The translations under genes were made by a program, and so were the position numbers. Under the pieces are notes generated by a model. It ran no database searches and was not told the DNA's origin. It was given only the letters and a program-made list of their open reading frames with translations. 64,000 bases of DNA, from NCBI GenBank assembly GCA_000182565.2, contig KQ257455.1, one strand, 5' to 3'. This stretch comes from Spizellomyces punctatus DAOM BR117 (taxonomy: Eukaryota). This document shows, piece by piece, positions 35,823-39,207 of this stretch (positions are counted from its first letter, which is position 1; every line of letters starts with the position of its first letter).

Positions 35823-37156
35823 TCATTCATCCTCCATTGTCTTCGTATCTGTGATGGTCCACATATAGTAGCTGCCTATTGTGCGATATGGCTCCCAAAT
35901 CTTCGCAGCCTCCCTCATTTCATCCGGCTAAATCAACCACATCGTCAGCTTTAAAAGGAGGAAGAGTAACTCTGAATCCAAAAGGTGATACTGACCGTCG
36001 GGAGATAGATGCCGCCACCTGCCTTTTGTTTCGAGCCCTTCTTACCATTACTTCCTTTCATTCCAAAGTGTTTGCTCATGCCTTTACGTATGCCAAGATC
36101 CCCAACAGGTAGTATATTGGGTCGTTTGAGGTCAAACATAAGGAACATGTCAACTGATAATAAAAAAAGTTCGTATTAATCAGTAGTATAGCACGTTTCG
36201 CCATGCCTTTCCTACCTGTCCACTATTTCATCAGCCGCATTGCCAAGAGTAATGTTCAATTAAACCAAATAGGCGACAAGCCATAATCAGACCATATCAT
36301 ACCGGTCCAATTCCCTTCACGCTACAAAGCAATTCGGCAATAGCGTCGTCCTCCATCCGCAACAAGGCCTCAGTTGATATCGATCCATCCAAGAACCGAT
36401 CCGCTAACGCATGGACATACTCGGCTTTACGCTGAGAGAGCCCTGCTGAAGTCAATTCCTGCCGCTCCTTATCTCGGACCGCCCGCGGCGTCGGAAACCA
36501 TTTAGGATGTCGCTCCGCGGCAGCAGGGTCCAGTTTTTCGTCGAAGAGGGTCAGGAATCTGCGCAAAATGGTAGATGCAGCCTTTCCACTCAGTTGCTAT
36601 CCAGTAAATCACATTAGTATATCTAAGAGAACCTTATGACACAAGACTAGAAATACTGACTTGGTAGATAATTGCCGTCGCAAGCGCCTTGAAAGCATCT
36701 AAACCTTGCTCCGCCGAATCTTCGCTCTCGAAAATCTTACAAGGCTTTCCAGCTCGCTTCACCACTTGCTCTAATCTCGGATCTTGCCCACAAATGTAAG
36801 ATAACGCCGTCGAATAGTCGAACGGTGCGTCTGACGGAGGCAAGGCAGCAGACGGAGCGGCTACCGCGGATGCGGCGGTTTCTATTTCCGATGCCTCAGC
36901 GACAAGGTCCGGTGCATCTGGCGGAATGGACGGCAAGCTTTTCGGTGCTCTAGCAACTTTTACGGGCTTCTTCTTCAACGTCTCATCTATTCTCTCTGTG
37001 ATCTTTCTCTTGGTGACCCTGCAAAATGAAATTGCGACGAAACAACACCGACTCAGTACTGCACAGTTCACCAGACGAACTAAAACAATACCTAAAGACA
37101 GCAGGGCCATCCTGTAGAGCACCAGCTTGAATCTTCGCCTGTCTTCTTGTAAGCAT
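35823..37156 (-). CDS. MAG1: DNA-3-methyladenine glycosylase (HhH-GPD)
   Basis: [77 protein letters not shown]. Confidence 0.92.
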
Positions 37157-37624: not shown

Positions 37625-38846
37625 ATGGGGCATCGTTGGATTATCTTCATCTTTGTCCTGCTACTCCTGGCTCATACTACACGCCCCGACGAAGAGGACT
37701 TTAAGCGAAATGTCCGAGAATATGCAGCCGAACAGAGTATCTGGCATTTGTTGGCGTCAACGGCGGTGCTTGGTGTGACAGATGCATTTCACATATTGCG
37801 ACTGGACGACTATGGCCTGTTCACAGTCATTTCCGTTCCCAACTTCTTGGGAAAGGCTCCCCTAAAGTTTGTGGGACTGTTTGGAACTTTTATACCGCTC
37901 TCATGGAAGGTGATACGCAAAGCGTGGCAGGGCTGGGAGCTTGAGGGACCTCATTGCCAGCCATGTCTTAACGGTAATCCTCACAGCTCTTCACAAATAA
38001 TATGACATGCCCTTAATAAAGTATGTCTCGGATATAGGCATCTGTATCGGCAACAACAAGTGTTTCTGTCTGCCGAGCTTTTCCGGTCCAACTTGTGAGC
38101 ACACAATGCCAAAATATGTGACACTTTGGGACTATGTTGGCTATTTCGTTCCGGTAGCCCGACAATACACCGACCATTGTATTTTTGGAATACCGATTCA
38201 CTACCTTCCATCAAGAGTTGTATCAGTTGGAGAAGTGCTTGGTGTCATCGACGTGTCAACGCAGCTTGGACTATTGGATCTGTTAGTGCTTCTTTACCTC
38301 GGTATCTATGTTGCCTGGAAAGTAGCTCCCAGAGACATAATGCAGCGACATTTCGTCGCAAAGTATGCGAATCTAAGGGAGGGAGCAAGACGATACCACG
38401 TCTTGTTGACCAGCGCGTGGAGCCATGATTCCTTCTTGCAGCTCGGGGTGAATCTGTACGGGCTTTACGAATACGGCCCAATGATTTACCAAGTACTGGG
38501 GCCAATCACATTCCTGTATTTCTACTTATTGACCTGCGTCGGGACGGCGAGTCTCAGTCTTTTCTTTGGAATGATCCGCGGTAGGTATGACAAGGAGTAC
38601 CACGGGGCTACAGGCAGCATAATGGCCTTGAGATGCTTTACCGTATGGGGACTGTCCGCTCTCGGCAAGGGAGTGGTGAAATGGCAAGCTGTTAAAGATA
38701 TGGCGCTCTGGCAAGTTGCCGCAGATATTATAGCAAACGGCGGAAACGTAGATGGGTGGGATTATATTGCACCAGCTCTAGTTTCTGGCATCTTCTACTA
38801 TCACTGGTGGCAGGAAGCGAAATATAAACCCATGCGATGGTTTTAA
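37625..38846 (+). CDS. Membrane protein: signal anchor, DUF4359-like segment, EGF-like domain and rhomboid-like domain (probable pseudoprotease)
   Basis: Intron 37974-38037 joins the two ORFs in frame, giving CQPCLN|GICIGNNKCFCLPSFSGPTCE. Rhomboid-like segments RYHVLLTSAWSHDSFLQLGVNLYGL and YHGATGSIMAL follow. Confidence 0.8.
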
Positions 38847-39207
38847 TCTTTGACGGGCCTGAACGAGGTGACCAATTTTGTTGTATGAACTACCACAGCA
38901 CAGCAGGGAAGGCTGTCTGATCCCCCCCTGATGTTCTACGAAACTGGCTGATTACTCCCGCGGTAGCTTGATCTGGAATGATGTGTGCAAGCGATAGAAT
39001 GTTAACGCAAAGTAGAAGCCCTTGGACGTCCGGCGTTGGGGTTATCTGCGACAATAATTTTAAGAATGGCTAACAGCAGCAACGGATCAGGACAAAATCG
39101 CAAATCTCTGTTTGCAAACAATACATATCATCGAAAGTGTATAGTACATGGTGCGCAATCTCAAATCAACAAATGAACAATAATAGCTTGCACGAGCAAG
39201 TCGGTCT

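What the first reader, a model, noticed from the sequence alone, without database searches (positions are those of the whole stretch)
37625..38846. EGF-like domain fused to a catalytically degenerate rhomboid in a fungus
Seen: removing intron 37974-38037 fuses two ORFs into a signal anchor, a DUF4359-like segment (TRPDEEDF...DYGLFTV...FVGLFGTFIPL), a six-cysteine EGF-like module (C-x2-C-x3-IC-x5-CFC-x4-SGPTCE) and a rhomboid-like core. In that core GxSG reads GATG, the TM2 HxxxN His is Gln, and the TM6 region (DGWDYIAPALVSG) has no His. Known: active rhomboids use a Ser-His dyad, animal rhomboids release EGF ligands, and inactive iRhoms/Derlins act as trafficking or ERAD adaptors. Inference: this may be an undescribed iRhom-like receptor or adaptor carrying its own extracytoplasmic EGF module. 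I know of no fungal protein with this architecture.
Basis: partly seen in the sequence, partly recalled or inferred. Interest (0 to 1): 0.75.

Follow-up and report, generated by a model that had tools for sequence, protein, structure and literature searches.

The report
DUF4359-EGF-rhomboid pseudoprotease of chytrid fungi
This chytrid gene encodes a seven-helix membrane protein that joins a small bacterial-type domain, one EGF module and a rhomboid protease fold that has lost its catalytic residues; it belongs to a conserved but unstudied family.

Summary
The window is Spizellomyces punctatus.

It has an N-terminal TM helix and a domain homologous to DUF4359 (profile-profile 95%, E 2.6e-8; no direct Pfam hit). 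One six-cysteine EGF module, a conserved linker and a six-helix rhomboid core follow. The core superposes on GlpG (Z 20.1, rmsd 2.7 Å, 172 residues).

GlpG S201, H254 and H150 are replaced by T308, Y359 and Q251; N154 and the two GxSG glycines are kept.

It is not unique. About 26 cluster representatives share the architecture, from nine named chytrid taxa and the glaucophyte Cyanophora. Algal relatives have DUF4359 plus rhomboid without EGF.

In the chytrid-type clade only 3 of 24 scorable members keep Ser+His, against 13 of 14 algal relatives and 80 of 88 other rhomboids.

It is not an iRhom or Derlin. The layout is 1+6, as in PARL, so the EGF lies on the membrane face opposite the vestigial active site.

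RNA reads show transcription but no spliced read. The function, probably a non-catalytic binder of membrane clients, is inferred. I found no paper describing the family.

The parts
37625..37973 (+). Exon 1 (aa 1-116 plus the first base of codon 117)
   Evidence: ATG-initiated frame. The spliced length equals that of SPPG_03979.
37974..38037 (+). Intron, 64 nt, GT..AG, phase 1
   Evidence: Sequence. Left unspliced, the frame stops at 38003-38005. The splice restores the EGF cysteine pattern conserved in homologues. No spliced read was seen, and low depth lies over it.
38038..38846 (+). Exon 2 (aa 117-385 and the stop codon)
   Evidence: 100% identity to P0003. RNA-seq depth reaches 34 at 38480-38857.
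37628..37678 (+). TM0, the N-terminal signal-anchor helix (aa 2-18); it takes the place of the extra helix of a 1+6 rhomboid
   Evidence: AF2 helix 2-18. It aligns with the TM helix of bacterial DUF4359 proteins.
37679..37930 (+). DUF4359-like domain (aa 19-102): TRPD motif, two helices, four strands (DYGLFTV, LKFVGLFGTFIPL), one helix
   Evidence: hhalign of A3 against A4: prob 95.2%, E 2.6e-8. Atlas structural neighbours include DUF4359 clusters at TM about 0.6. AF2 secondary structure.
37955..38096 (+). EGF-like module (aa 111-136; C111, C114, C119, C125, C127, C136), interrupted by the intron
   Evidence: The family profile hits solved EGF repeats. 8-12 of 24 members hit Pfam EGF families, best E 1e-7.
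38097..38270 (+). Conserved linker (aa 137-194) with F143-type 'GF.SLW' and 'C.LGIP...LP' motifs
   Evidence: Alignment and conservation table. AF2 pLDDT is 82-95 here.
38271..38825 (+). Six-helix rhomboid core (aa 195-379): TM1 195-212, L1 213-248, TM2 249-270, TM3 272-296, TM4 308-324, TM5 332-349, TM6 357-379
   Evidence: AF2. GlpG by Foldseek: target-normalised TM-score 0.70-0.79. GlpG by VIA: Z 20.1, rmsd 2.7 Å, 172 aligned residues. Pfam.
38439..38441 (+). CAG = Gln251, at the position of GlpG His150 (TM2)
   Evidence: hhalign; sequence.
38610..38612 (+). ACA = Thr308, at the position of the catalytic Ser201 of GlpG (GATG in place of GxSG)
   Evidence: hhalign; sequence.
38763..38765 (+). 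TAT = Tyr359, at the position of the catalytic His254 of GlpG (TM6)
   Evidence: hhalign. The same column is His in 80 of 88 scorable other rhomboids.

Best explanation
SPPG_03979 is a real, expressed, two-exon gene. It encodes a seven-helix rhomboid-like pseudoprotease with a DUF4359 - EGF - linker - rhomboid architecture. It belongs to an unnamed family conserved across Chytridiomycota, with relatives in a glaucophyte and a green alga.

Shown:
- The domain composition.
- The rhomboid fold.
- The replacement of the Ser-His dyad and of the TM2 His by Thr, Tyr and Gln.
- The retention of structural rhomboid positions (N255, G306, G309, H246, the L1 motif).
- Dyad loss as the rule in the chytrid-type clade.

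Inferred from helix count and domain chemistry:
- The short N-terminus (4 aa) and loops L1/L3/L5 face the cytosol.
- The DUF4359 domain, the disulfide-bonded EGF and the linker face the ER lumen or the cell exterior.
- This is a PARL-type 1+6 layout in which the loop between the extra helix and TM1 has grown into an ectodomain.
- The vestigial active-site cavity therefore opens on the side opposite the EGF.

Inferred by analogy with other dyad-less rhomboids (iRhoms, Derlins, and catalysis-independent adaptor roles):
- The protein no longer cuts.
- It uses the conserved rhomboid core to bind or destabilise transmembrane segments of client proteins.
- It uses the DUF4359-EGF ectodomain as an extracytoplasmic protein-binding module.
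- So it would act as an adaptor or regulator of membrane-protein trafficking, stability or signalling. It might work together with, or against, the few family members that keep the dyad.

My odds: real spliced gene with this architecture 0.95; catalytically dead 0.9; topology as stated 0.7; secretory-pathway or plasma-membrane location 0.65; adaptor mechanism 0.35.
For: Gene and expression:
- Identity with the public model.
- RNA-seq depth up to 34 over 38480-38857 on the sense-consistent strand.
- The splice restores an EGF pattern conserved in homologues.

Fold:
- AF2 with 150 rows: pLDDT 86.5, pTM 0.72, seven long helices.
- GlpG by Foldseek: target-normalised TM-score 0.70-0.79. All 16 matches at E<=0.001 are GlpG.
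- GlpG by VIA: Z 20.1, rmsd 2.7 Å, 172 of 178 residues.

Dead site:
- T308, Y359 and Q251 stand at S201, H254 and H150.
- PDB entries 2xtu and 2xtv are titled 'GlpG active site mutant S201T'.

DUF4359: hhalign 95.2%, E 2.6e-8.

EGF.

Family:
- 370 hits at E<=1e-3.
- 30 of the 150 listed rows carry the N-domain.
- In a tree of 130 of 150 rows, a 40-row clade (SH-aLRT 96) holds all DUF4359-bearing rows and a 26-row subclade (96) holds the chytrid EGF forms.
- Dyad intact in 3 of 24 scorable rows of the subclade, 13 of 14 of the remaining clade, and 80 of 88 scorable other rhomboids.

Topology:
- Helix count.
- K+R on the N-tip/L1/L3/L5 side 155 against 102 on the other side, summed over 24 members.
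- The PARL N-terminus and active site are both on the matrix side (passages of PMC7966987).
- 1+6 forms are described in the review PMC12615303 (passages).
Against: No spliced read was listed. A depth of about 1.4-1.9 lies over the bins that hold the intron. The junction therefore rests on comparative evidence and the public model only. Some transcripts may retain the intron, which would give a 126-aa DUF4359-only product.

The Pfam rhomboid match covers only the first half of the model. The A1-only profile aligns to GlpG weakly (prob 26%).

No direct Pfam DUF4359 hit was found in any of 24 members.

The charge bias for the topology is modest, and L1 is long. I could not inspect model coordinates, so whether TM0 packs on the core, or is cleaved as a signal peptide, is open.

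Location and clients are untested. Relatives of the core resemble organellar PARL-type rhomboids (recalled, not tested), so a mitochondrial location is not excluded.

Dyad counts depend on a MAFFT alignment. One row (P0040) reads differently in A1 and A2, and P0107 and P0070 sit on long branches.
Confidence: 0.6

Rival explanations
1. The protein is still a protease. Thr308 would act as the nucleophile, with another base (for example His246 or His373) replacing His254.
For: The GxxG frame, the N154 equivalent and the overall active-site architecture are kept. Eight rows of the clade keep Ser without the TM6 His, which could hint at an alternative base.
Against: Three of the four catalytic-site positions are changed at once. 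GlpG S201T is deposited as an 'active site mutant' (2xtu, 2xtv). Within the clade the Ser position holds T, G, N, I, V or A, and the His position holds Y, I, M, W or D. That is the pattern of relaxed constraint, not of a new catalytic solution.
Confidence: 0.05
2. It is an inner-mitochondrial-membrane protein of PARL type. The N-terminus and vestigial site would face the matrix, and the DUF4359-EGF loop would lie in the oxidising intermembrane space.
For: The 1+6 layout is described as mainly organellar (review PMC12615303, passages). The consensus of the nearest dyad-bearing rhomboids resembles PARL/Pcp1 motifs as I recall them. Algal DUF4359-rhomboids and a few chytrid members have 20-70 residue N-terminal extensions before TM0, some rich in Arg/Ser/Ala.
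Against: Only four residues (MGHR) precede TM0 in S. punctatus, and several chytrid members have acidic residues there, unlike a presequence. EGF modules are typical of the secretory pathway (general knowledge). No targeting predictor was available.
Confidence: 0.15
3. The fusion is an annotation artefact or a decaying gene. On this reading there are two separate products, a DUF4359 protein and an N-truncated rhomboid, or a pseudogene.
For: No junction read, and low read depth over the intron. Left unspliced, exon 1 ends in a stop after 126 codons.
Against: The same contiguous architecture occurs in about 26 cluster representatives from many taxa. The splice exactly rebuilds the conserved C..C.NG.C motif. 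Both frames are open and conserved. AF2 is confident across the junction (pLDDT 88-95 for residues 111-140). RNA covers the 3' exon.
Confidence: 0.04

Closest known systems
PARL/Pcp1-type (1+6) rhomboid proteases
   Same: One extra helix lies N-terminal to the six-helix core. The N-terminus and the active-site face are therefore on one side, and the loop between the extra helix and TM1 is on the other (PMC7966987 passages; PMC12615303 passages). Motifs of the nearest dyad-bearing relatives look PARL-like, but that is recalled and not tested.
   Different: The dyad is lost. The inter-helix loop is expanded to about 175 residues holding a DUF4359 domain, an EGF module and a conserved linker. No presequence is visible. 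The extra helix is the TM of a DUF4359 domain.
iRhoms (RHBDF1/2) and Derlins, the known rhomboid pseudoproteases
   Same: A rhomboid fold without a working Ser-His dyad, with an extra domain on the extracytoplasmic side. The probable mode of action, non-catalytic handling of membrane clients, is inferred.
   Different: There is no iRhom homology domain in L1, no long cytosolic N-terminus, no TM7, and no Derlin-type C-terminal tail; the protein ends 6 aa after TM6. Structural scores are lower than for GlpG: iRhom1 Z 17.4, iRhom2 15.4, Derlin-1 14.5, Der1 11.4, against 20.1. The ectodomain lies on the face opposite L1, whereas the iRhom domain sits in L1.
E. coli GlpG (active rhomboid protease)
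   Same: It is the best structural match: Z 20.1, rmsd 2.7 Å, 172 residues, model residues 194-377 on GlpG 95-272. The N154, G199, G202 and H145 equivalents are kept.
   Different: S201->T, H254->Y and H150->Q. The orientation relative to the N-terminus is inverted because of TM0. There is an N-terminal ectodomain in place of a cytoplasmic domain.
DUF4359 (PF14271) proteins of bacteria
   Same: An N-terminal TM helix is followed by T-N/R-P, two helices, 'DY.lF' and 'LG.lg.F' strands. Profile-profile: 95.2%, E 2.6e-8, 86 columns.
   Different: The bacterial proteins are about 100-aa stand-alone proteins of unknown function. In 2 of 2 bacterial genomes examined they are not next to the rhomboid gene. 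Here the domain is fused upstream of EGF and rhomboid and falls below the Pfam threshold.

Membership tests
Rhomboid superfamily (Pfam PF01694 fold) | Match to the Pfam Rhomboid model above its gathering score | tested here: met
   33.8 bits against 22.6, E 4.6e-8, but only profile positions 4-81 of 143. 18 of 24 family members match.
Rhomboid superfamily (Pfam PF01694 fold) | Six-helix bundle superposable on a solved rhomboid | tested here: met
   GlpG: Z 20.1, rmsd 2.7 Å, 172 of 178 residues. Foldseek target-normalised TM-score 0.70-0.79. Model pLDDT 86.5.
Active rhomboid proteases (MEROPS S54) | Catalytic Ser in GxSG on TM4 and catalytic His on TM6 | tested here: not met
   Thr308 and Tyr359 stand at GlpG S201 and H254 (hhalign prob 97.6%).
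Active rhomboid proteases (MEROPS S54) | TM2 HxxxN (GlpG H150, N154) | tested here: not met
   Gln251 replaces the His; Asn255 is kept.
iRhom | Large iRhom homology domain between TM1 and TM2 | tested here: not met
   L1 is residues 213-248, 36 aa.
iRhom | Long cytoplasmic N-terminal domain and a seventh helix C-terminal to the core (6+1) | tested here: not met
   Four residues precede TM0, and the protein ends 6 residues after TM6. The definition is taken from passages of the review PMC12615303 and from recall.
Derlin | Closest structural and sequence kinship to Der1/Derlin-1, and a cytosolic C-terminal tail | tested here: not met
   Derlin-1 Z 14.5 and Der1 Z 11.4, against GlpG Z 20.1. There is no tail. 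That a tail defines the family is recalled.
PARL-type rhomboids | 1+6 topology (an extra helix N-terminal to the core) | tested here: met
   AF2 helices 2-18 plus six core helices.
PARL-type rhomboids | Mitochondrial targeting and inner-membrane location | not testable with these tools
   No targeting predictor was available. By eye there is no presequence (4 aa before TM0).
PARL-type rhomboids | Groups with named PARL/Pcp1 sequences in a tree | not tested
The resemblance of motifs is recalled only.
DUF4359 (PF14271) | Match to the Pfam model above its cut-off | tested here: not met
   No hit at E<=10 in the query. 0 of 24 members hit at E<=1.
DUF4359 (PF14271) | Profile-level homology to proteins that do pass the Pfam model | tested here: met
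   A3 (12 N-domains) against A4 (5 bacterial proteins found with PF14271): prob 95.2%, E 2.6e-8, 86 columns.
EGF-like domain | Six cysteines in EGF spacing and a match to EGF models | tested here: met
   The pattern is in the sequence. The query alone is below the cut-off (EGF_2 15.9 against 22.1 bits). The family profile hits solved EGF repeats at E 1.9e-6, and the best member reaches E 1e-7 for EGF_Teneurin. Disulfide pairing was not examined.

The most novel reading that the evidence does not exclude
Chytrids, and in ancestral active form some algae, possess a distinct class of 'inverted' surface rhomboids. In this class a DUF4359-EGF ectodomain senses an extracellular or luminal partner, while a cytosol-facing rhomboid core that has mostly lost catalysis captures transmembrane clients. 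That would be a receptor/adaptor system evolved independently of animal iRhoms. It would give DUF4359 its first functional context as a rhomboid-coupled module.
Probability: 0.2. Interest if true: 0.75.

Novelty: new variant of a known kind. Interest (0 to 1): 0.55.

Why it matters
Known rhomboid pseudoproteases (iRhoms, Derlins, UBAC2, TMEM115) each revealed a non-proteolytic use of the rhomboid fold. This family would be another, independent case, with three features that make it worth testing.

- A domain combination (DUF4359 + EGF + rhomboid) that I did not find described in print.
- A natural series from dyad-bearing to dyad-less members inside one clade, which is a ready-made comparison for asking what the fold does without catalysis.
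- A PARL-like 1+6 layout, apparently outside mitochondria.

It also links DUF4359, a bacterial and cyanobacterial domain of unknown function, physically to rhomboids in eukaryotes. The family is present in chytrids of ecological and agricultural concern (Batrachochytrium salamandrivorans, Synchytrium endobioticum), but nothing here bears on virulence. The present evidence is entirely computational, apart from the read coverage.

Tried and rejected
Searches and folds that gave little:
- Single-sequence AF2 was useless (pLDDT 37.9).
- Word-indexed homologue searches found almost nothing: self only; none for the N-domain alignment among 52-224 aa proteins; 4 proteins for the family alignment. These blanks reflect the candidate cap, because the exhaustive search found 370.
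- NCBIfam returned 0 families.
- The hhalign of the 24-row profile against GlpG was weak (prob 26%). The 150-row profile was needed.
- Atlas search by features gave no usable hit for residues 1-110 and scores of 0.75-0.76 for the whole protein, which are leads only.

Sequencing runs:
- No RNA holder was listed by the index.
- Laying one RNA raw-read run and three contig runs gave no joint at the intron.

Genome-level steps:
- No whole genome is held for the window, so paralogues in S. punctatus could not be sought.
- DUF4359 is rare in the Pseudomonadota sampled: 1 of 401 genomes and 2 of 301 genomes.
- In 2 of 2 DUF4359-bearing genomes, DUF4359 is not adjacent to the rhomboid gene.

Other:
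- Earlier findings of the scan: none.
- A conserved membrane-embedded Arg after GxSG ('ALR'), seen by eye, did not reach 60% in the larger alignment, and I dropped it.
- iRhom and Derlin membership were considered and rejected (see Membership tests).
- Complex prediction was not used, because no partner is known.
Full report
WHAT IS THERE

The window is from the chytrid Spizellomyces punctatus DAOM BR117. The translation of 38040-38843 is 100% identical to the 385-aa public protein SPPG_03979 (P0003), which UniRef names 'EGF-like domain-containing protein'. It gives 116 + 1 (split Gly117) + 268 = 385 residues, the length of that protein. Left unspliced, the first frame would stop at 38003-38005.

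THE SPLICE

The comparative evidence is strong. The junction rebuilds C111-x2-C114-x4-C119-x5-C125-x-C127-x8-C136, with two cysteines on one exon and four on the other. The same motif is contiguous in homologues from other chytrids, and Gly117 is conserved in at least 90% of 24 aligned members.

Direct evidence is lacking. One RNA-seq raw-read run of the same species label (about 6% of it read, 135 reads laid) covers the 3' part of the gene to depth 34 (38480-38857). Its depth is only about 1.4-2.9 over 37832-38155. That stretch includes the bin that is mostly intron (depth 1.94), and no joint reached the listing threshold. So the gene is transcribed, the junction is not shown by reads, and some unspliced RNA or DNA carry-over is present.

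DOMAINS

Pfam gives Rhomboid (PF01694) at E 4.6e-8 and 33.8 bits against a cut-off of 22.6. The match covers only residues 236-317, which are profile positions 4-81 of 143. EGF models fall below their cut-offs (EGF_2 E 0.018), and there is no DUF4359 hit even at E<=10. NCBIfam gives nothing.

An exhaustive phmmer search of 1.84 billion cluster representatives found 370 proteins at E<=1e-3 and 15 at E<=1e-10.

With the best 150 as an alignment, AlphaFold2 gives a confident model (mean pLDDT 86.5, pTM 0.72). A single-sequence run had failed (pLDDT 37.9). The model contains:
- helix 2-18 (TM0);
- two helices and four strands (23-102);
- a small beta module (117-127 and following);
- short linker helices (146-184);
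- six long helices (195-212, 249-270, 272-296, 308-324, 332-349, 357-379).

Foldseek against the PDB returns only GlpG entries at E<=0.001 (16 of 16), with target-normalised TM-scores of 0.70-0.79. VIA-align gives:
- GlpG: Z 20.1, rmsd 2.7 Å, 172 of 178 residues, model residues 194-377 on GlpG 95-272;
- iRhom1: Z 17.4;
- iRhom2: Z 15.4;
- Derlin-1: Z 14.5;
- Der1: Z 11.4.

The rhomboid fold is therefore established.

CATALYTIC POSITIONS

I fetched E. coli K-12 glpG and compared it with the 150-row profile whose first row is the query. hhalign gives prob 97.6%, E 4.8e-12 over 164 columns. The equivalences are:
- H145 = H246
- H150 -> Q251
- N154 = N255
- G199 = G306
- S201 -> T308
- G202 = G309
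- H254 -> Y359

The smaller 24-row profile gave the same TM2 and TM4 equivalences, but weakly (prob 26%). The PDB itself holds GlpG S201T entries titled 'active site mutant' (2xtu, 2xtv).

EGF

The family profile hits EGF repeats of teneurin-3 (E 1.9e-6), Hedgehog-interacting protein, reelin and Notch in the PDB. Between 8 and 12 of 24 members hit one Pfam EGF family or another, with a best E of 1e-7.

DUF4359

None of 24 members hits PF14271 at E<=1. The Atlas's structural neighbours of residues 1-110 did include DUF4359 clusters (TM about 0.6, flagged as below the naming bar).

To test the link I searched bacterial genomes with PF14271 itself. It was found in 1 of 401 and in 2 of 301 sampled genomes. 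I extracted five proteins and compared their profile with a profile of 12 N-terminal domains of the family. The result is prob 95.2%, E 2.6e-8 over 86 columns, covering the TM helix, the T-N/R-P motif, 'DY.lF' and 'LG.lG.F'. The segment is thus a divergent DUF4359 domain, including that domain's own TM helix.

THE FAMILY

An HMM of the N-domain finds it in 30 of the 150 listed proteins. About 26 carry a full or partial EGF pattern.

I looked up names for 30 proteins. Those with names are:
- Synchytrium microbalum
- S. endobioticum
- Batrachochytrium salamandrivorans
- Phlyctochytrium bullatum
- Gonapodya prolifera
- Polyrhizophydium stewartii
- Blyttiomyces sp.
- Kappamyces sp.
- the glaucophyte Cyanophora paradoxa (DUF4359 + EGF + rhomboid)
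- the green alga Cymbomonas tetramitiformis (DUF4359 + rhomboid, no EGF)

The rest are unnamed metagenomic records.

I built a quick maximum-likelihood tree of the rhomboid core from 130 of the 150 rows. The 20 dropped rows filled under 75% of the core columns; they include P0008, P0012, P0025 and P0055. The tree puts all DUF4359-bearing rows in one 40-row clade (SH-aLRT 96). Twenty-two of the 23 EGF-bearing rows in the tree fall in a 26-row subclade (96). Cyanophora falls among the algal forms.

Caveats on the tree: support is SH-aLRT only, from a quick search. P0070, P0107 and P0136 are long branches. Eight rows in the clade lack a detectable N-domain, and some of those are fragments.

LOSS OF THE DYAD IS A CLADE TRAIT

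The 26-row subclade breaks down as Ser+His in 3 rows (P0010, P0014 from Phlyctochytrium, P0038), Ser only in 8, His only in 1, neither in 12 (the query among them), and gapped in 2. In the other 14 rows of the DUF4359 clade, Ser+His is found in 13. Among the 90 remaining rhomboids, 80 have Ser+His, 6 have Ser only, 1 has His only, 1 has neither and 2 are gapped.

Generic structural positions of rhomboids stay conserved in the subclade: F222, R235, H246, N255, G271, G306, G309, D346, G361 and G362. This is the pattern expected of a fold kept for a non-catalytic use. It is an inference, not a demonstration.

TOPOLOGY (INFERRED)

There is one helix before the 175-residue DUF4359-EGF-linker region and six after it. 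TM1 is a single span. The ectodomain and loop L1 must therefore lie on opposite faces.

In GlpG-type rhomboids the active site opens on the L1/L3/L5 face. [quoted passage not shown] The review PMC12615303 describes 1+6 forms as mainly organellar (passages).

A disulfide-rich EGF, a four-residue N-terminus (MGHR) and acidic residues after TM0 argue that the ectodomain is luminal or extracellular and that the vestigial site faces the cytosol. The K+R counts summed over 24 members favour this modestly, at 155 on the N-tip/L1/L3/L5 side against 102 on the other.

I could not see model coordinates or run signal or targeting predictors. Three points therefore stay open: cleavage of TM0, its packing on the core, and a mitochondrial alternative with the EGF in the intermembrane space.

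COMPARISON WITH KNOWN KINDS

The protein works, most probably, like other dyad-less rhomboids, as a binder or handler of membrane clients. It is not an iRhom: it has no L1 homology domain, no long N-terminus and no TM7. It is not a Derlin: structural scores are lower and it has no tail. Structurally its core is nearest to an ordinary active rhomboid, and in layout it is nearest to PARL.

The EGF and the vestigial site are on opposite faces.

LITERATURE

Searches for rhomboid with EGF-like domain or chytrid, DUF4359 (one unrelated paper), rhomboid with Spizellomyces, rhomboid with pseudoprotease or Chytridiomycota and rhomboid with Batrachochytrium found no description of this architecture.

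The fungal serine-protease survey PMC5567314 (its rhomboid section read in full; passages) recognises only Pcp1/Rbd1, Rbd2 and ROM-1-like subfamilies. Its supplementary tables were not examined and might list this clade. PMC8778642 (passages) adds nothing on it.

The library excludes most subscription journals, so 'not in print' is limited to these searches.

VERDICT

The gene is a member of a conserved, unstudied, mostly catalytically dead rhomboid clade with a new domain architecture. That makes it a new variant of a known kind, of moderate interest. Its value lies in the natural active-to-inactive series and in the DUF4359 link rather than in any demonstrated function.

Noticed in passing
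P0008 (128-aa protein from an unnamed record): P0008 matches the N-domain of the query (39% identity) up to '...CPGCVNG' and then runs into about 15 unrelated residues and ends. This looks like a gene call that read into an intron at the same position as the S. punctatus intron, which suggests a conserved intron site inside the EGF module.
   Followed up: no
P0019, P0076 (Cymbomonas tetramitiformis), P0081, P0095, P0096, P0146, P0150: These proteins have DUF4359 fused directly to a dyad-bearing rhomboid without an EGF. They carry 25-70 residue N-terminal extensions before the TM helix that could be organelle-targeting peptides. An Atlas structural neighbour of the whole query is an 80-member Streptophyta rhomboid cluster aligned over residues 17-378, which hints that land plants may have the same fusion.
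   Followed up: partly
L082/L083 (G254) and L085/L086 (G635); L084 (G635): Bacterial DUF4359 genes come in pairs 1-2.6 kb apart in both genomes found. One copy (L084) is the N-terminus of a 389-aa open frame with a long unrelated C-terminal part. L083 looks truncated at 82 aa. None lies near the genome's rhomboid gene.
   Followed up: partly
window 38679: A>G appears in 3 of 25 RNA reads. It would change Lys331 to Glu in loop L4. It could be strain polymorphism, editing or error.
   Followed up: no
window 37940-38047: RNA-seq reads at a depth of about 1.4-1.9 lie over the bins holding the 64-nt intron. They could reflect unspliced transcripts, intron retention (which would give a 126-aa DUF4359-only product) or DNA carry-over.
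   Followed up: no
window 36297-36596 (- strand): The upstream, divergently oriented neighbour encodes an HhH-GPD base-excision-repair domain (PF00730, E 5.7e-7). About 430 bp separate the two genes' 5' ends.
   Followed up: no
P0003 residue 164 (window about 38178-38180): A seventh, unpaired cysteine lies in the linker motif 'C.LGIP'. It is conserved in a subset of members (P0005, P0016, P0018, P0021, P0028, P0092) but not in others.
   Followed up: no
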